From NCBI GenBank assembly GCA_951406725.2, contig OX597818.1, positions 59,954,001 to 60,018,000 on the forward strand: a stretch of DNA of 64,000 nucleotides. The letters run 5' to 3'. The notes under the pieces are model-generated. The model saw only the letters and a list, made by a program, of their open reading frames with translations, ran no database searches and was not told the DNA's origin. Origin of the DNA: Octopus vulgaris. Lineage: Eukaryota. Both the position numbers and the translations under genes were made by a program. Below are positions 2,384 to 63,644 of the stretch, one piece after another (position 1 is the first letter of the stretch; each line of letters opens with the position of its first letter).

Positions 2384-2426
2384 TATATATATATATATAT
2401 ACAAATATTCTATAATTATAAATAAT

Positions 2427-3043
2427 AGTTGGTAAAATTAATTAATAATTAATTAGTTTTACCCTTTTATTATTGATAATATAATTCTCTCTCCCTGATA
2501 TTTAACTACAGTTCTCTCTGTAGAAATGTATTGCTCTGTAACTCACGTGGGAGGAACGGGAAGAATGCGAGGCCTCTTTTGTACTTTTTGAATTTGGTAG
2601 TACTGGCGGTCGAAGATGGTATGTCTGGGATTACTCATATCAGACGGGTATGTTCGATTTTTAGTGCTCTCAAATCCAAATCGAAAGAAATCTTTGAGCT
2701 GACGAAGGAAATGTTGATCTTTATATTCAACTAATCCAGAAACGGCCGTTCTCATGTAATCTTATGTACGTATGATCTTTCGTTATTTTTCCCTCTATAC
2801 CTGTGTCAGTTATTTTTGAGTATGCATTGTCTGGAAGATTTTTCTTACAGTAGAAGAAATAGCTAAGATTTTTTGGCTGCTATTTCTAAAAGTTCTGTGT
2901 GTGGTAAAGTAAATTATTTTACTGAACCCTAATTATATAACGTAATGTTTTAAATATACCGTAAATAGTCTTTTTACATACTGAATACTACTTGGTAAAA
3001 TTAATTGATAATTAATTAGTTTTACCCTTTTATTATTGATTAT
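2427..3043 (+). mobile_element. Penelope pLTR-like non-coding element with ~50-bp terminal direct repeat
   Basis: TTGGTAAAATTAATT..TTTTACCCTTTTATTATTGAT occurs at ~2429-2478 and ~2992-3040; internal hammerhead; motif TTTGGCTGCTATTTCT is shared (reverse complement) with 26190 and 31975. Confidence 0.55.
2695..2754 (+). ncRNA. Minimal type-I hammerhead ribozyme motif
   Basis: UGAG-CUGACGA-aGGAaauGUUGA..UCAACuaaUCCa-GAAAC-GGCC-GUU|CUCA; stem III is the perfect palindrome AACGGCCGUU. Confidence 0.75.
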
Positions 3044-3149
3044 ATATATATATATGTGTATATATATATATACACATGTACATACATGCGTAGAAGTGTG
3101 TCTGTCTATTTGTATGAATAACTATAAACATTAATATACAAAGATAGAA

Positions 3150-5256: not shown

Positions 5257-5399
5257 TTTAGTAAACCAAGCCATTATAATACCAATAAATGACTAACAAA
5301 CTCTTAAGAAAATCATGTGAACATTACTCATGCAAAAGATAGAGGAGCTACCGTAGGCACTTAAGTATAAGTGTGGTATTTATCAGACTTGATGTTTTT

Positions 5400-5808
5400 T
5401 ATTTCTTTATTGCCCACAAGGGGCTAAACATAGAGGGGACAAACAAGGACAGACAAACGGATTAAGTTGATTACATCGACCCCAGTACGCAACTGGTACT
5501 TAATTTATCGACCCCGAAAGGATGAAAGGCAAAGTCGATCACGGTGGAATTTGAACTCAGAACGTAACGGCAGACGAAATATCTATTTCTTTACTACCCA
5601 CAAGGGGCTAAACACAGAGGGGACAAACAAGAACAGACAAACGGATTAAGTCGATTATATCGGCCCCAGTGCGTAAGTGGTACTTTATTTATCGACCCCG
5701 AAAGGATGAAAGGCAAAGTCGAACTCGGCGGAATTTGAACTCAGAACGTAACGGCAGAAGAAATACAGCTACGCATTTCGCCCGGCGTGCTAACGTTTCT
5801 GCCAGCTC
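5400..5808 (-). mobile_element. SINE family A with tandemly duplicated body
   Basis: Two ~185-bp body units; TSD-like CAGA(C/T)TTGATGTTT on both flanks. Confidence 0.88.
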
Positions 5809-5837
5809 ACAGATTTGATGTTTCTCTCCCTTCCTTT

Positions 5838-5892
<55 letters not shown>

Positions 5893-7411: not shown

Positions 7412-7830
7412 GTTAATCCAAACATGAACAAAGGTAAAACACAACAACGCGAGGACCTGGAACAAGTATAGTGTTATTGGACACTCAGAAAAGGAAAGAA
7501 AGAAGGGGGATTTAACGTTTCGAGCGGAGCTCTTCGTCAGAAACATAGGGAAAGGAAAGGTCCAAGGAAGGGAAGACGGAGAAATAAAATCGTCAACGAT
7601 ACACACGTGGTCACTTATTGAAAAATGAAAAATGTGTATATATATATATATAATGTGGTGTGTGCGTTTGTCCGAAGGGCTTCTTTCAGTTTCCGTCTAC
7701 CAAACCTTCTCACAAGGCTTCAGTCTGCCCGATGCTATTACAAAAGACGCATGCTCAAGGTGCTACTCAGTGGGATTGAACCCAGAACTATGTGGTTGGG
7801 AAGCAAACTTCTTACCTCACAGCTACAACT
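7095..7830 (-). mobile_element. SINE family B interrupted in its internal (TA)n by a hammerhead element
   Basis: Tail half ~7095-7355 and head half ~7670-7830 match 8331-8746; insert at ~7411-7637. Confidence 0.75.
7510..7544 (-). ncRNA. Minimal type-I hammerhead ribozyme motif
   Basis: GUUU-CUGACGA-a-GAGC(ucc)GCUC-GAAAC-GUU|AAAU; stem III palindrome AACGUU. Confidence 0.8.
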
Positions 7831-17547: not shown

Positions 17548-17929
17548 CTCCGGTACGTATTAATCCTTTCTACTAGAGGCAGAAGACCTGAAAATTTGAG
17601 GTACGGGACCAGCTGATTATATCAACTGCAGTATTTCACTAGTACTTTATTTATCGATCCCAACATGATGAAAGGCAAAGTCAACCCCGGATGAATTTGA
17701 ACTCAGAACGGTAAAGATGGAGAAACGTATTAATAACTAATATGCGAATCATCGTTCCAGATCTCGCTGTACACATAGCAAATAATGTTATTAATTTTAT
17801 ATTGGTCAGCTAAAATTATAAACAAAGTTAGTGGCTTGTTTGGGTTTAAAGGCCCGCGTACTTTTAACTGACGAGACACAACATGTCAAGACACACTGTA
17901 ATTATATATATATATATATATTTCTTTAC

Positions 17930-18333
17930 TACCCACAAGGGGCTAAACACAGAGGGTACAAACAAGGACAGACAAACGGATTAAGTCGATTATATCGACC
18001 CCAGTGCGTAACTGGTACTTATTTAATCGACCCCGAAAGGATGACAGGCAAAGTCGACCTCGGCGGAATTTGAACTCAGAACGTAACGGCAAACGAAATA
18101 CGTTTTTTTTTATTACCAACAAGGGGCTAAACACAGAAAGGACAAACAAGGACAGGCAAACGGATTAAGTCGATTATATTAACCCCAGTGCGTAACTGGT
18201 ACTTAATTTATCGACCCCGAAAGGATGAAAGGCAAAGTCGACCTCGGCGGAATTTGAACTCAGAACGTAACGGCAGACGAAATACGGCTACGCATTTCGC
18301 CCCGCGTGCTAACGTTTCTGGCAGCTCGCCGCC
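17930..18333 (-). mobile_element. SINE family A with duplicated body
   Basis: Full head GGCGGCGAGCTG..; two body units. Confidence 0.88.
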
Positions 18334-18697
18334 TTTTTACACCAGTATTATATATATATATATATATATAATACAGGTGTAAAAACTTGAATGTAGATTC
18401 GTCCTTTAATTTGGAGGTTTCCAAAAACAGATTTCTAATGTTGGTTCGTCATACATTTTTGGTATTTTACAGGCGTAAATTTACCAAGATATGAAACTAG
18501 TACTTGTATATAACGTCTGGTGAATTTATGGAATGAACTCCCATAAAACTCATCAGTTTAGTTTAAAATGGAAGATAGAAGAACGAAACGATTGTCTGCA
18601 AGAATTAAACTTCTTATATATTTCAATAACCTGTTTCCTCCATTTTTAAATAAATTGATGTTTTCTTATAGGACTCCTTTCCATAAATTAACCATAC

Positions 18698-24398: not shown

Positions 24399-25714
24399 CG
24401 AGGTGTAGTCAAACATTATCCGACCTTCATTTTGTGGCACAAAATAACAATACGTTAGAAAAATCCTTATGGGTATTATATGGCCATAACGTGACTCGTT
24501 AAAGGCGGCGAGCTGGCAGAAACGTTAGCACGCCGGGCGAAATGCGTAGCCGTATTTCGTCTGCCGTTACGTTCTGAGTTCAAATTCCGCCGAGGTCGAC
24601 TTTGCCTTTCATCCTTTCGGGGTCGATAAATTAAGTACCAGTTACGCACTGGGGTCGATATAATCGACTTAATCCGTGTGTCTGTCCTTGTTTGTCCTCT
24701 CTGTGTTTAGCCCCTTGTGGGTAGTAAAGAAATAGGTATTTCGACTGCCGTTACGTTCTGAGTTCAAATTCCGCTGAGGTCGACTTGGCCTTTCATCAGT
24801 TCGGGGTCGATAAATTAAGTACCAGTTACGCACTGGGGTCGATATAATCGACTTAATCCGTGTGTCTGTCCTTGTTTGTCCCCTCTGTAGTAAAGAAATA
24901 GGTATTATGTGGCACGTCGTTCCTGAGCATGCGCAAGAATTTTCGTGTCTGTAGTTTGCGCCATTTGCCCACAGTGCCGCGTTGAGTATAGACATGAAGT
25001 GTATGCTGTGCGATTTCTCTTTTTGAGTGAAAATGACAGAGCACATTGAGCAAAGATACTGTTTTAAATTCTGCTTAAAACTTGGTGATATGCAGGCCCA
25101 GACTACTGAGAAGATTCAGAAGGCCTTTGTAGATGATGGTATGGGAAAAACACAAATAAGGGAATGGTACAACCGGTTCAAAGATGACCGCACCTCAGTG
25201 GACAGTGAGCCAGGTTGTGGGCAGACAATTAACATAGAACACTAATTGGGGGTTCTTCGTCGCATTCGTGAAGTTGTGCCACGACAACGACCTGACTTGT
25301 GGGCAGCAAAGAACTGGAAACTCCACCATGACAACGCACCCACTCAGACCGCCCACGTTGTCCAAGCATTCCTCGTCAACCAAAACATACCACTTGTTCG
25401 TCGGGTTTCCTGCTCCTCAGATTTGGTTCCGTGTGACTTTTGGCTGTTCCCGAAGCTCACAAAAGAGACAAAACACTCAGAGGGAGAAGATTTGAATCAA
25501 CAAAGGACCTTAAGCAAAATTCGACGGCACAGCTCTACAGCATCCCAAAAAGTGATTTCCAGAAATGTTTCCAACAGTGGAAGGAACGCTGGAAGAAGTA
25601 TGTAGAGCACTAAGGAGAGTACTTTGAAGGAGCCAAAATAAAAATGGTGAGTTTTTCAATATTACTTCATTTTTTTCTGTGGCCAAAGATCAGTTACTTT
25701 TTGACAACACCTTG
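24399..25714 (+). mobile_element. Mariner-type DNA transposon, internally deleted and frameshifted
   Basis: Imperfect ~29-bp TIRs (CGAGGTGTAGTCAAAC.. / ..TTTGACAACACCTTG) with TA on the left; HTH region EQRYCFKFCLKLG..WYNRFK at 25033-25225; catalytic-domain remnant LHHDNAP..SSDLVPCDFWLFPKL at 25246-25460. Confidence 0.9.
24503..24900 (+). mobile_element. SINE family A (duplicated body) nested in the mariner
   Basis: Full head, B-box GAGTTCAAATTC, two body units ending AAAGAAATA. Confidence 0.9.
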
Positions 25715-26059: not shown

Positions 26060-26313
26060 TTGCGTGTTTATATATAAATGCATGTATGTTTATACATATA
26101 TTTGTAATAGTCCGGTCGATCAACTGATCAATATATACATAAATAAAAAGGGGCGAGCAACAGGTTGCTTAGCCACATACCGAAAAATCAGAAATAGCAG
26201 TCAAAGACTGTTTATTTCTATTTTCCACAAATATGACTCCACATACATCATATCCATGTAATTCACATATGTAAAACAGAAGGAAAATATAAAGAAAATA
26301 TAGTCTAGGATTA

Positions 26314-26373
26314 GTTACGGACACGTTTCTGGATTAGAATTATAAATCAATTCATTTCGTTTATCAACGCAAC
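26314..26373 (-). ncRNA. Type-I hammerhead motif, U3:A8 variant
   Basis: GUUGCG-UUGAUAA-acgaaauGAAUU..AAUUCuaaucca-GAAAC-GU-GUC|CGUAAC; 6-bp stem I, GUC cleavage triplet; stem II related to the 2695 motif. Confidence 0.72.
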
Positions 26374-26638
26374 ATTCCACTTAAATAGATTTCACAAATA
26401 CCATACATACCCTCCGCTTCCCGAGCCAGCGTCATCGGAGATAGTAGAAGATAGCTGGCATAGGCCAAATTCATAGAGACGAAAGAATTCGTACTTTCCC
26501 TCCAAAAATTTTACCATGTGCGTCACGAGAATCGTTCCTTAGAAATAGAACTATGGACTGTCATAGTTCTAGAAATAGAACTATTGATTGCCCTTATGCT
26601 ACCGTCCAACCCATGCCAGCATGGAAAGCGGACGCTAA

Positions 26639-26766: not shown

Positions 26767-26802
26767 CTTTTACGTTTCGAGCCTACGCTCTTCAACAGAA
26801 AG
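26767..26802 (-). ncRNA. Minimal hammerhead motif, A6U core variant
   Basis: CUUU-CUGUUGA-a-GAGC(guag)GCUC-GAAAC-GUA|AAAG; lies in an element homologous to 61891-62070. Confidence 0.65.
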
Positions 26803-31675: not shown

Positions 31676-31902
31676 GCGGCGAGCTGGTAGAAACGTTAGC
31701 ACGCCGGGCGAATTCGTAGCCGTATTTCGTCTGTCGTTACGTTCGAGTTCAAATTCCGCCGAGGTCGACTTTGCCTTTCATCCTTTCGGGGTCGATAAAT
31801 TAAGTACCAGTTACGCACTGGGGTCGATGTAGTCGACTTAATCCCTTTGTCTGTCCTTGTTTGTCCCCTCTGTGTTTAGCCCTTGTGGGTAGTAAAGAAA
31901 TA
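31675..31902 (+). mobile_element. SINE family A, monomer
   Basis: Head, core and AAAGAAATA end. Confidence 0.88.
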
Positions 31903-31915
31903 TATATATATATAT

Positions 31916-32560
31916 AAGTAATACTAAGTAATTAAGGGTTTAGCAACGAATTGCCTCACCAACACACCGAATTTAGAAATAGCAGTCAAAGAGATATAGC
32001 TATTCCTTCTACTAAAAGGGGATCTCAGTAAAAACACAGCACTTGAAAGGCAAACACAGACAGGTAAGAAAGAAAGAATGAAATGACGGCAATCTATCAT
32101 GCAATTTTAAGTTACCTACGGACGTACGTTTCGAGATCAAGTTTTAGGATAGCATAAGAATTAGAAAATTCTACTTTACCAAACTTCTTCTCTCATCGGC
32201 GCAGGATACGACAATTATGAATAATTGTATATTAAATTTTGAGATACTAGAATGCATCATCTCAACTCAGTGTCAGAGCGAGCCAAAGCATGACCAGTAC
32301 CACGAAATTCAAAGTTTGAATGAAAGTTTGTGTCACCAGCCCCTTCCACCCGCGTGTAGCCAAGACAAAATGCTGCGGTCATTTACTGGGATAAAATATG
32401 GTTATCAGTAATAATAAAGGGTGAAATTAATTAATTAGGGATAATTATCAATTACACCAAGTAGATTTCGGCATGTAAAAGCCCCATTCGAGGAAAATTT
32501 AAGTAATACTAAGTAATTAAGGGTTTAGCAACGAATTGCCTCACCAACACACCGAATTTA

Positions 32561-37201: not shown

Positions 37202-37377
37202 ATTATTTACATTTGACGGATATTTGTCCTCATCTTCTTTGTTGTTAACACAACGTTTCGGCTGATATACTCTCCAGCCTTCATCAGGTGTCTTGGGGAA
37301 ATTTTGAACCTGGGTTCTCATTCCTAAGGTATTTTTCGATGTTATTATTATTATCATTATTATTATTATTATTATTA

Positions 37378-39124: not shown

Positions 39125-39169
<45 letters not shown>

Positions 39170-39173
39170 CATA

Positions 39174-39587
39174 TATTTCTTTACTACCCACAAGGGGCTA
39201 AACACAGAGAGGACAAACAAGGACAGACAAATGGATTAAGTCGATTACATCGACCCCAGTGCGTAACTGGTACTTAATTTATCGACCCCGAAAGGATGAA
39301 AGGCAAAGTCGACCTCGGCGGAATTTGAATTCACAACGTAACGCAGACGAAATACCTATTTCTTTATTACCCACAAGGGGCTAAACATAGAGGAGACAAA
39401 AATGGACAGACATAGGTATTTAGTCGATTATATCGACTCCAGTGCGTAACTGGTACTTAATTTATCGACCTCGAAAGGATGAAAGGTAAAGTCGACCTCG
39501 GCGGAATTTGAACCCAGAACGTAACGGCAGACGAAATACGGCTACGCATTTCGCCCGGCGTGCTAACGTTTCTCGCAGCTCGCCACC
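39174..39587 (-). mobile_element. SINE family A (duplicated body) inside a (TAG)n tract
   Basis: Two body units with (AGT)n on both sides. Confidence 0.88.
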
Positions 39588-39588
39588 T

Positions 39589-39591
<3 letters not shown>

Positions 39592-39633
<42 letters not shown>

Positions 39634-39773
39634 GAGGAGTAGTAGTAGTAGCAGCAGCGGTGGTGGTGGTGGTGGTGGTGGTGGTGGTGGTGGTGGTGGT
39701 GGTGGTGGTGGTGGTGGTGGTGGTGGTGGTGGTGGTGGTAGTGGTGGTGGTGGTGGTGGTGGTGGTGGTGGTG
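39592..39773. repeat. (AGT)n-(GGT)n compound microsatellite
   Basis: Read directly. Confidence 0.95.
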
Positions 39774-42739: not shown

Positions 42740-43215
42740 GAGGTTTTCTGTGGGGGAAGCAGGTGTTGTCTCAAGGTATCGGTGGATCAGGAGATGCGAG
42801 CCCTGGTAATGGGCAGTACTACCAGTATCTATTTCTTTACTGCCCACAAGGGCCTAAACACAGAGAGGACAAACAAAGTCAGACAAACGGATTAAGTCGA
42901 TTATATCGACCCCAGTGCGTAACTGTTACTTATTTAATCGACCCCGAAAGGATGAAAGGCAAGGTCGACCTCGGCGGAATTTGAACTCAGAACATAAAGA
43001 CAGACGAAATACCGCTAAGCATTTCGCCCGACGTGCTAACGATTCTGCCAGCTCGCCGCCTTGTACTACCAGTATCAGTGTCAACTTGACCAGAGTTGTG
43101 GCTTCTTCAACAACAACTGCGAGGTCAAGATGAGGTTATCTGATGTTGAAAGCCCCAAAACATCTGATGACCTTAGGAAACATCAATAATGTTGTTTCCA
43201 GTCTCATCACAGAAT
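42740..43215 (+). mobile_element. Possible HERO-like LINE 3' end, split by a SINE
   Basis: EAGVVSRYRWIRRCEPW* resembles the AE.AS.WLW.RR terminus; 43130-43205 resembles a HERO 3' UTR (recalled from memory, not searched). Confidence 0.4.
42830..43062 (-). mobile_element. SINE family A monomer with TSD
   Basis: 14-bp TSD GTACTACCAGTATC at 42816-42829 and 43063-43076. Confidence 0.92.
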
Positions 43216-43430
43216 GATGAATGGAAAAGGAAGACAATTATAAACAAAGACAAACCTGATATAAACTATGATGAATTCCATTTGCAATTCTGCAATTCGA
43301 GTTAAGGATGAAGCTGAGAAATATCTAACTGTAAACAATTGTTTTCTTAACACTAACAAATAAATATATACTTCATTCAGTCGCTAAACTTTGGTTTGAA
43401 AACAACTCCATAATTTGGTGCGTTCCTTTT

Positions 43431-44029
43431 TTATTTCTTTATTGCCCACAAGGGGCTAAACATAGAGGGGACAAAAAGGACAGACAAAGGGAATAAGTCG
43501 ATTACATCGACCCCAGTACGAAACTGGTACTTAATTTATCGACCCCGAAAGGATGAAAGGCAAAGTCGACCTCGGCGGAGTTTGAACTCAGAACGTAGCG
43601 GCAGGCGAAATACCTATTTCTTTACAACCCACAAGGAATTAAACACAGAGAGGACAAACAAGGACAGACAAACGGATTAAGTCGATTATATCGACCCCAG
43701 TACGAAACTGGTACTTAATTTATCGACCCCGAAAGGATGAAAGGCAAAGTCGACCTCGGCGGAATTTGAACTCAGAACATAGCGGCAGACGAAATACCTA
43801 TTTCTTTATTACCCACAAGGGGCTAAACACAGAGAGGACAAACAAGAACAGACAGACGGATTAAGTCGACCATATCGAACACATTGCGTAACTGGTACTT
43901 AATTTATCGAACCCGAAAGGATGAAAAGCAAAGTTGACCTCAGCGGAATTTGAACTCAGAACGTAAAGACAGACGAAATACCGCTAAGCATTTCGCCCGT
44001 TGTGCTAACGTTTCTGCCAGCTCACCGCC
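43431..44029 (-). mobile_element. SINE family A with triplicated body
   Basis: One head and three ~183-bp units; TSD TTGGTGCGTT on both flanks. Confidence 0.9.
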
Positions 44030-44358
44030 TTGGTGCGTTGCTTTCTATTAAGTTGGAAACAACGTCCCTCCTGCTGCATTTTAACAGAATCATTTTGATA
44101 ATGAAGGTACTTTTGCAATATTTACAGTAAAACAAACATTATTTTTTGATATTCTGATGGGTTTATTTTTCCCTTTCTTAATAGGTTACTTTACACCATA
44201 GATGTGGTAGAGATGACGAACTAAAAGTGGATCTGTTTTTTGCGGTGAAGATGGAGTTACTATGCACGAGGATGCTTGATGCTGGTTATTTCCGGTTGGA
44301 GATCATGATACGTGAGGTGAATAGACGTGATATGTAGCAGAAGTGATAGTTCTTTGAA

Positions 44359-47679: not shown

Positions 47680-48377
47680 AGAATGAAATCTAGCTATTAT
47701 TGTACTGATTCAAGCTGACAAAGAGGTGAAATTGGCAGTGCAGCTATGATTGCCTTTGGGATTGTATATATTAAACCTTTTGCCGAATTTATAGTTGCTG
47801 GGGAAGAGTTTGTAGATTAACTTTAGAAAGTATCTAACAATAACGGCTCTAACGATAGGACTAAAGGTTGGCTATACAGAATAGATTTCGTGCAAAAAGC
47901 ATCTAATCGATTTGGTTCTAACGTCTAAACTGAAAATTAGATCATGCCATATAGTTTTATTGTGGAAAGAATCTGAGAATATTAGCTCTAAAGTTTTAAC
48001 TGAAAGGGGTATATACTTTATAAAGTTAGCTTAGGATCTGCTTAAATTGAAAAGATGTTAAGCACCATAGCTTTATTTTAGGAAGGAACTAGCAATATTA
48101 GTATAAACATGTATACTCAATAGGTTGTGGTTATATGATAAAGTTTTCGATTAGAAAAGATCTAACAACATTTGTTCGCGATAATGCAGTTCTATATTTA
48201 AGTGATGAAGAATTATGTACATTATTTACATTAATTACATTCAACGGATATTTGTCCTCATCTTGTTTGTTGTTAACACAAAGTTTCGGTTGATATACCT
48301 TCCAGCCTTCATCAGGTGCCTTGGGGAAATTTCGAACCAGCGTTCTCATTCCGAAGGTACTTTTCGATGTTGTTCTT

Positions 48378-51892: not shown

Positions 51893-52004
51893 ACGTTTAT
51901 AGTTTTATATATATATATATAAAACTATAAACGTCGCCTTATATATATATATATATATATAGTTAATCCCCAAAAACGAAGTATTAGCAGATGATGGAAA
52001 AAAA

Positions 52005-52039
52005 GTTTTACATTTCGAGCAAAGCTCTTCGTCAGAAAC
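52005..52039 (-). ncRNA. Minimal type-I hammerhead motif
   Basis: GUUU-CUGACGA-a-GAGC(uuu)GCUC-GAAAU-GUA|AAAC; same family as 7510-7544. Confidence 0.75.
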
Positions 52040-53040: not shown

Positions 53041-53112
53041 GCCGGCTAGCTCAGTCGGTAGAGCACGAGACTCTTAATCTCGGGGTCGTGGGTTCGAGCC
53101 CCACGTTGGGCA
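53041..53112 (+). tRNA. trnK-CTT: tRNA-Lys(CTT), possibly a pseudogene (1-nt deletion in 5' acceptor strand)
   Basis: GCCGGCTAGCTCAGTCGGTAGAGCACGAGA-CTCTTAA-TCTCGGGGTCGTGGGTTCGAGCCCCACGTTGGGCA is nearly identical to metazoan tRNA-Lys-CTT (GCCCGG..); TTTT at 53120-53123. Confidence 0.88.
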
Positions 53113-57975: not shown

Positions 57976-58069
57976 TATATACATATAGCCCAGTGGATAA
58001 GGCACCGGCTTCCTAAGCCGGGGATTATTGGTTCATGTCCTGTTAGAGGTAGAAAAAGTTAATATTAGG

Positions 58070-63371: not shown

Positions 63372-63464
63372 CATTTCCATGTGCTACGATGGAGGCGATG
63401 GTTATCTGTTTGGTTCTGCTGGGTATGTTGGTTTTGTTCATTCTTGATATGTCTTGAATATGTT

Positions 63465-63517
63465 TCACTGATGAACAAAAGACGTCGATAATACGTTAAT
63501 TGCGAAATTACAGGTGA
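63465..63517 (+). ncRNA. Degenerate hammerhead-like motif
   Basis: UCA-CUGAUGA-aCAA..GACGU..ACGUU..UUGc-GAAAU..UGA but no NUH triplet; the surrounding segment is bounded by (TA)n on both sides. Confidence 0.35.
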
Positions 63518-63644
63518 TCTGGAACTAAATTCTGTTTTTAAATGTCTTGCTTCGAGAGCTGCATTTGGTACGATTCGTTTATTTTTTGGTAGTAATGACT
63601 TTGAAAGTCCCTCCTAGCGTGTGGCATTTATGTGTAATAATGCC

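What the first reader, a model, noticed from the sequence alone, without database searches (positions are those of the whole stretch)
26314..26373. Within-family covariation from C3:G8 to U3:A8 between related hammerheads
Seen: this motif and the one at 2695-2754 share the stem II scaffold (a.gaaaug...cuaaucca-GAAAC), and their elements share the AGAAATAGCAG(T/C)CAAA motif. The core is CUGACGA in one and UUGAUAA in the other. Stem I (UGAG/CUCA versus GUUGCG/CGUAAC) and inner stem II (GUUGA/UCAAC versus GAAUU/AAUUC) also change while keeping pairing. Inference: structure rather than sequence is conserved.
Basis: partly seen in the sequence, partly recalled or inferred. Interest (0 to 1): 0.72.

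Follow-up and report, generated by a model that had tools for sequence, protein, structure and literature searches.

The report
Hammerhead retrozyme with swapped core pair
The two motifs are worn copies of a predicted self-cutting RNA inside a 560-base non-coding repeat that is likely pasted around this animal genome by Penelope-type enzymes; the swapped core base pair is real and already in print, but this family also keeps the half-swapped stages.

Summary
Observation confirmed. Both motifs are type-I hammerheads in homologous, non-coding ~560-bp repeats. The shared scaffold has 631 exact matches in G000 (reversed control 0). Genome-wide, positions 3:8 read U:A 372, C:G 177, U·G 112 and C·A 9 (106 expected). 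With relatedness controlled, support is modest: 2 of 168 null pairs score as high. Helix I and inner helix II keep pairing through double changes, and all 16 recurrent loop-3 types are self-complementary, which predicts dimer cleavage. Copies end in (TA)n (96 of 103) and form tandems, more-than-unit inserts and inverted 5' copies. That is a Penelope footprint, and an intact Neptune-like element is present. So this is a non-LTR retrozyme. The U3:A8 swap is published for Penelope hammerheads (Cervera & De la Peña 2014), and this scan noted similar families on other DNA. Corrections: the 2695 copy has GUU, not GUC, and the 26314 copy has a private helix-II mismatch. Added here: intermediates were amplified. 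U·G subfamilies exist, and the 26314 lineage runs C:G to C·A to U:A (twice). Helices I and II carry twin AAU/URA internal loops. Cleavage and expression are untested.

The parts
26131..26565 (-). E2: 5'-truncated copy of the ~560-580-bp non-coding repeat (clade B)
   Evidence: Extent from blastn to nearest kin; kin at 80-94% identity
26308..26378 (-). E2 hammerhead with distal helix I: helix I 26373-26368/26319-26314, loop 1 AAU/UAA, helix II 26360-26330, helix III ACGUGU
   Evidence: Sequence
26361..26367 (-). E2 core UUGAUAA (U3:A8); predicted cut after GUC, between 26320 and 26319
   Evidence: Sequence; shared with nearest kin L002
26190..26205 (+). Shared AGAAATAGCAGTCAAA motif, antisense to the E2 hammerhead
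2421..3046 (+). E1: 1.1-unit copy (clade A) between (TA)n tracts; terminal direct repeat 2421-2483 / 2984-3046, period 563
2685..2763 (+). E1 hammerhead with distal helix I: core CUGACGA 2699-2705 (C3:G8), helix II 2706-2738, palindromic helix III ACGGCCGU, predicted cut after GUU at 2750
   Evidence: Sequence
2872..2887 (-). Shared AGAAATAGCAGCCAAA motif, antisense to the E1 hammerhead
31900..32490 (-). E3: young, more distant relative (~588-bp unit; limits approximate) with the same shared motif and end; hammerhead 32115-32205, core CCGAUGA (C3:G8, U4C)

Best explanation
Both motifs are type-I hammerhead folds in homologous non-coding ~560-bp repeats whose copies end in TA microsatellites; they are predicted to self-cleave as dimers and are likely copied by a Penelope-type RT/endonuclease, and selection on the RNA at each copying round likely keeps the pairing, including the C3:G8-to-U3:A8 swap. 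Shown: homology, family size, pairing patterns, palindromic helix III, unit length, tandem/inverted/more-than-unit insertions, and an intact Neptune-like element in the genome. Inferred: read-through transcription of tandem copies; two hammerheads pair through helix III and cut after GUC/GUU to release a ~560-nt monomer; a host ligase circularises it; the Neptune-type enzyme reverse-transcribes more than one unit into (TA)n; AAU/URA loops in helices I and II dock and buffer core changes, so U·G and briefly C·A masters could still spread. The two window copies are themselves slightly decayed.
For: 3:8 table 372/177/112/9, C·A expected 106. Tree-based LR 22.1-22.7, reached by 2 of 168 null pairs. 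97.1% of cells paired and covariation score 0.328, against 0.125 shuffled and at most 0.081 slid. Helix I pairs hold in 166-178 of 185 instances with four double-changed versions. 16 of 16 recurrent loop-3 types are self-complementary (33 of 33 positions, null mean 14.3, 0 of 20000). 96 of 103 loci meet (TA)n at one of two fixed distances versus 17 of 103 controls. Terminal repeats with period ~500-645 in 22 and inverted copies in 27 of 103. A 7 x 559.5-bp array with an inverted 5' copy and no ORF. RT + zinc-finger + GIY-YIG element with 98-99% identical copies ending at (TA)n. U3:A8 nested in C3:G8 within clade B.
Against: No cleavage or expression shown. The likelihood test is anti-conservative (39 of 168 null pairs pass its nominal 5%), and two non-pairing contrasts with position 3 scored 18-19. 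In one search, two of five measures do not beat the shuffles (82/500, 147/500), the 58 rows were hand-picked from 158 distinct motifs, and 18 rows were gapped at position 8. The canonical G10.1-C11.1 pair is absent if helix II is counted from the core. The Neptune-like element shares no alignable hammerhead region with E1-E3, so the partner is not identified. Clade-B branches are short (0.003-0.036).
Confidence: 0.75

Rival explanations
1. The repeats are solo pseudo-LTR stubs of an autonomous Penelope-like element not yet found. The hammerhead was selected in that parent, and the short copies are 5'-truncated by-products, not self-propagating circles.
For: Same insertion footprint, and most copies are 5'-truncated, E2 included. 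Cervera 2014 link dispersed single motifs to truncated PLEs.
Against: Where copies are long, the sequence upstream is the unit's own 3' end (22 of 103; E1). Arrays have ~540-560-bp periods with no ORF. Among the 40 longest open frames in 125 loci I saw no Penelope ORF upstream of a unit; the one GIY-YIG fragment lies beyond a TA tract.
Confidence: 0.15
2. The hammerhead is largely inactive in U3:A8, U·G and C·A subfamilies. The core drifted, and the 3:8 association only reflects two old lineages.
For: U·G 112 of 670; amplified U4C cores; a C·A grade; modest tree-controlled signal. Li et al. 2026 saw cleavage in 1 of 9 retrozyme dimers tested.
Against: Outside clade A, C·A is still scarce (about 8 seen versus 21 expected; the C:G and U·G counts are extrapolated from the first 100 listed rows; Fisher test). 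U:A arose at least twice. Helices and loop-3 palindromes stay compensated in the same subfamilies. Perreault 2011 state that U3-A8 is active in vitro.
Confidence: 0.08
3. UUGAUAA in the 26314 copy is private post-insertion decay (CpG or random) of a canonical core.
For: This copy carries other private changes (26359; loop 3 GC to GU).
Against: Its nearest kin shares UUGAUAA, and U:A is the commonest state genome-wide. In clade A only 4 of 54 instances depart from C:G and none is U:A.
Confidence: 0.02

Closest known systems
U3-A8 minimal hammerheads of Cercyon Penelope-like elements, Schistosoma mansoni (Cervera & De la Peña 2014, PMC4209133; abstract, results, discussion and part of methods read, supplement passages)
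   Same: C3-G8 / U3-A8 covariation among related motifs, long helix II, extra nucleotide after A9, palindromic helix III, many heterogeneous subfamilies, opposite-strand pairs of motifs
   Different: Helix I here is 6 bp with an internal loop and distal stem. A conserved A precedes G12, which their consensus lacks. There is a 3x3 loop in helix II. No ORF is attached. They report no U·G or C·A counts in the parts I read.
Animal non-LTR retrozymes (Cervera & de la Peña 2020, PMC7229834, passages; review PMC7761336, passages; Li, Clavereau & Pollet 2026, bioRxiv 10.64898/2026.07.22.740005, main text through discussion)
   Same: Non-coding, AT-rich monomer with one type-I hammerhead per unit, tandem and dispersed copies, proposed circular intermediate and mobilisation by PLEs
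   Different: The unit (~560 bp) is above the 150-450 bp of the 2020 paper but within the 51-972 bp of the 2026 one. No pLTR parent was found and no circRNA is shown.
Neptune/Naiad-type PLE insertions (Craig et al. 2021, PMC8557442, passages)
   Same: (TA)n target bias, partial tandems, inverted 5'-truncated copy
   Different: No RT or endonuclease in the unit; the genome's intact Neptune-like element has a different hammerhead
Natural U3-A8 and U4C core variants (Perreault et al. 2011, PMC3088659, passages)
   Same: Same substitutions; U3-A8 stated to be active in vitro, U4C slower but viable in a viroid
   Different: Here they occur as amplified subfamilies of one repeat, with intermediates ordered on a tree

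Membership tests
Type-I hammerhead ribozyme | Core YUGANRA ... GAAA ... UH with a 3:8 pair | tested here: met
   Sequence; 549 of 670 scaffold matches Watson-Crick, 112 wobble, 9 mismatch
Type-I hammerhead ribozyme | Helices I, II and III supported by compensatory change | tested here: met
   helix III only 2 bp as a monomer, invariant, extended by palindromic loops
Type-I hammerhead ribozyme | G10.1-C11.1 pair closing the core | tested here: not met
   Positions next to the core are A·A 121, unpaired A 44, C·A 17, U-A 2, G·A 1 of 185; the A before G12 was fixed by my anchor. A G-C pair follows one step out.
Type-I hammerhead ribozyme | Match to an Rfam hammerhead model | tested here: not met
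   No hit at gathering score
Type-I hammerhead ribozyme | Site-specific self-cleavage | not testable with these tools
   Needs an in vitro assay
PLE minimal hammerhead | Palindromic helix III / loop 3 (dimer type) and long helix II | tested here: met
   16 of 16 recurrent loop types self-complementary
PLE minimal hammerhead | Short helix I (4-5 bp) with poorly defined loop 1 | tested here: not met
   6-bp helix, AAU in 143 and URA in 164 of 185, distal pairs 165, 155 and 133 of 185
PLE minimal hammerhead | Lies in the pLTR of an RT/GIY-YIG ORF | tested here: inconclusive
   None seen in 125 loci or in 18 PLE loci; the genome was not searched exhaustively
Non-LTR retrozyme | Tandem units, each with a type-I hammerhead, no ORF | tested here: met
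   L120 (7 units), L121 (3), L122 and L123 (2 each)
Non-LTR retrozyme | Expressed as linear and circular monomer RNA | not testable with these tools
   Only assembled contigs were available
Non-LTR retrozyme | Target-site duplication | not tested
   Insertions lie in (TA)n, which hides them
Penelope-mobilised insertion | (TA)n target, partial tandem, inverted 5'-truncated copy | tested here: met
   96, 22 and 27 of 103 loci; the last two are lower bounds, since E1's own repeat was masked in that script

The most novel reading that the evidence does not exclude
The family is a dated record of a ribozyme crossing a catalytic-core fitness valley by two routes. In one clade U3·G8 wobble masters spread. 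On the 26314 lineage a mismatched C3·A8 master (CUGAGAA, possibly rescued by a one-nucleotide register slip of the core) kept retrotransposing until U3:A8 arose twice. Twin AAU/URA internal loops in helices I and II would form an undescribed internal-loop docking contact that buffers these changes.
Probability: 0.3. Interest if true: 0.58.

Novelty: new member of a known kind. Interest (0 to 1): 0.33.

Why it matters
As it stands, this is a well-supported new example of a Penelope-mobilised retrozyme with a known core variant. Its extra value is as test material: all four 3:8 states occur in one scaffold in amplified subfamilies, so one can measure how much cleavage a retroelement needs and whether a compensatory swap in a catalytic core can pass through a mismatch. 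The in vivo role of Penelope-type hammerheads is described as open in the papers read.

Tried and rejected
Rfam at gathering score found no hammerhead. Single-strand folding gave no signal, and simple co-folding gave the helix-III dimer for 5 of 7 motifs but not for E2 or L081, so I give it little weight. The first GAAA inside helix II as the core partner was rejected because no helix I forms. Private CpG decay was rejected (rival 3). The nominal p of 2e-4 from the likelihood test and the Fisher p of 5e-71 were rejected as overstated. Expression: no RNA holder listed; family-like pieces lie in contigs of 4 of 4 runs only guessed to be RNA, none spanning the unit, so these are not used as evidence. 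The intact Neptune-like element as parent: no shared hammerhead region. Pfam gave no hit on the GIY-YIG fragment; that label is recalled from its motif. Lünse 2017, Przybilski & Hammann 2007 and Nelson & Uhlenbeck 2008 were not held, so I have no measured rates for U·G or C·A. Paper searches for U·G or C·A intermediates returned only Cervera 2014 or nothing relevant; subscription papers, one unsearched supplement file of PMC4209133 and the closed bioRxiv supplements may bear on this. R-scape was not available.

Full report
Observation. The window lies on G000:C5 of a 2.8-Gb, microsatellite-rich animal genome. Both motifs are as described. E2 (minus strand) has core UUGAUAA and triplet GUC. E1 (plus strand) has core CUGACGA and triplet GUU, not GUC. 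Each carries a private pair-breaking change (E2 at 26359, E1 at 2755). Neither folds better than shuffles alone and Rfam does not detect them. Homology rests on two colinear blastn segments, on a shared scaffold with 631 exact genome matches against 0 for the reversed pattern, and on shared unit size and ends. DNA searches gave 2349 and 2832 first-look candidates, of which 40 each were scored.

The 3:8 pair. Four whole-genome pattern counts on the same scaffold gave U:A 372, C:G 177, U·G 112 and C·A 9, n = 670; independence predicts 106 C·A. Copies are not independent, so I built a tree from flanks only. It holds 185 instances: 191 found, 6 tandem copies of L120 dropped; the set is enriched for kin of E1 and E2 and for U·G and C·A copies that I fetched on purpose. 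It shows three deep groups. Clade A (E1) is C:G in 50 of 54, clade B (E2) is mixed, and clade C is mostly U:A and U·G. A dependent-evolution model beats independence by LR 22.1. The test is anti-conservative, however: 39 of 168 flank-column pairs pass its nominal 5% level, 2 reach 22, and two non-pairing contrasts with position 3 scored 18-19. The fair figure is about p 0.02. U:A is not private decay: E2's nearest kin shares it, and none of 54 clade-A instances shows it.

Intermediates. U·G is a master state in some subfamilies: by my reading only 2 of the first 100 listed U·G matches are clade A, and dozens share one inner stem with UCGAUGA or UUGAUGA. A 39-sequence tree of clade B and outgroups, built without the core, gives a ladder. 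CYGAAGA copies (C:G) lie at the base, then five CUGAGAA copies (C·A, on five contigs) as a grade (support 90). U:A then arises twice, once in the group holding E2 (93) and once in the UUGAGAA/UUGAUAA group (89), and a U·G group arises later (100). Internal branches are short and the supports are ultrafast bootstraps, so the order is suggestive only. CUGAGAA could also be read as a core lacking N7 that keeps a C:G pair; that is my inference and is untested.

Other helices. On 58 rows hand-picked from 158 distinct motifs, 97.1% of cells pair, 10 of 17 pairs change on both sides, and the covariation score is 0.328 against 0.125 shuffled and at most 0.081 slid. The two pair-counting measures do not beat the shuffles (82/500, 147/500), and 18 rows were gapped at position 8. 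Across all 185 instances the six helix-I pairs hold in 166-178, as GAG/CUC, RCG/CGU, AUG/CAU and AUA/UAU. All 16 loop-3 types seen twice or more with a GU triplet are self-complementary (33 of 33 positions; null mean 14.3), the signature of dimer cleavage described for such motifs. Helix I continues past an internal loop (AAU in 143, URA in 164 of 185; not part of my search anchor) into a covarying distal stem, mirroring the AAU/UAA loop of helix II. The loops sit 6 and 4 positions from the core, the helix lengths given for canonical type-I motifs, so a tertiary contact is inferred. The position next to the core is a mismatch or a lone A rather than G-C.

The element. E1 is 1.1 units between TA tracts (repeat period 563). 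E2 is 5'-truncated. L120 holds seven 559-560-bp units plus an inverted copy and no ORF. Of 103 loci, 96 meet (TA)n at about +155-215 or +275-325 from the cut (control 17), 22 show unit-spaced repeats and 27 inverted copies. This matches the Penelope footprint in Craig et al. 2021. The genome holds a 4.3-kb element with an RT domain (PF00078) and zinc-finger and GIY-YIG motifs (labels recalled; hence Neptune-like), with 98-99% identical copies ending CCC(T/G)T before (TA)n, as many family copies do. It has a different hammerhead, so it is a candidate helper, not a proven parent.

Mechanism. Shown: structure, family, footprint. Inferred: read-through transcription, dimer cleavage, ligation to a ~560-nt circle, more-than-unit reverse transcription by a Penelope-type enzyme, and selection on the RNA at each round (model as in PMC7761336).

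Comparison and novelty. U3-A8 in place of C3-G8 is reported for Schistosoma Penelope hammerheads with about 1,300 hits and for other natural hammerheads. Retrozymes as non-autonomous Penelope derivatives are in a 2026 preprint. This scan noted U3:A8 retrozyme families elsewhere, including in this genome (unchecked notes). I found no paper counting U·G or C·A intermediates, but three key biochemical papers were not held. Verdict: real, correctly read, a new member of a known kind; interest 0.33.

Noticed in passing
window 31900-32490 (-); L204-L228: E3 family: very young (about 99% identical), 587-588-bp tandem and inverted units; 45 of 48 hammerhead hits (overlapping loci counted again) read CCGAUGA (U4C) with canonical G-C at the base of a long helix II. 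It is the best candidate for a currently active member.
   Followed up: partly
window 63462-63525 (+): A fourth, distant hammerhead between TA tracts: canonical core, A·C at the base of helix II, a similar purine internal loop, different sequence (model E 9e-6).
   Followed up: partly
L196 2748-7028, L197, L198; window 26769-26802 (-): Intact Neptune-like element whose 3' hammerhead reads CUGUUGA (A6U); a matching fragment, seen by eye, lies about 400 bp upstream of E2's hammerhead on the same strand.
   Followed up: partly
L001-L118: Two fixed 3' ends per unit (about +175-200 and +290 from the cut), both ending near CCCTT before (TA)n.
   Followed up: partly
G000: Subfamilies that lack the nucleotide after A9 (44 of 185 instances) leave a lone A before G12.
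   Followed up: no
window 7513-7540, 37247-37287, 48275-48315, 52003-52035 (-): Other canonical minimal hammerhead-like motifs of different repeat families.
   Followed up: no
window 5384-5878, 17903-18397, 24501-24888, 39158-39651, 42814-44093: Dispersed family of 184-bp tandem units with inverted copies.
   Followed up: no
window 53041-53112 and 57979-58051 (+): tRNA-like Rfam hits, 52.7 and 36.6 bits.
   Followed up: no
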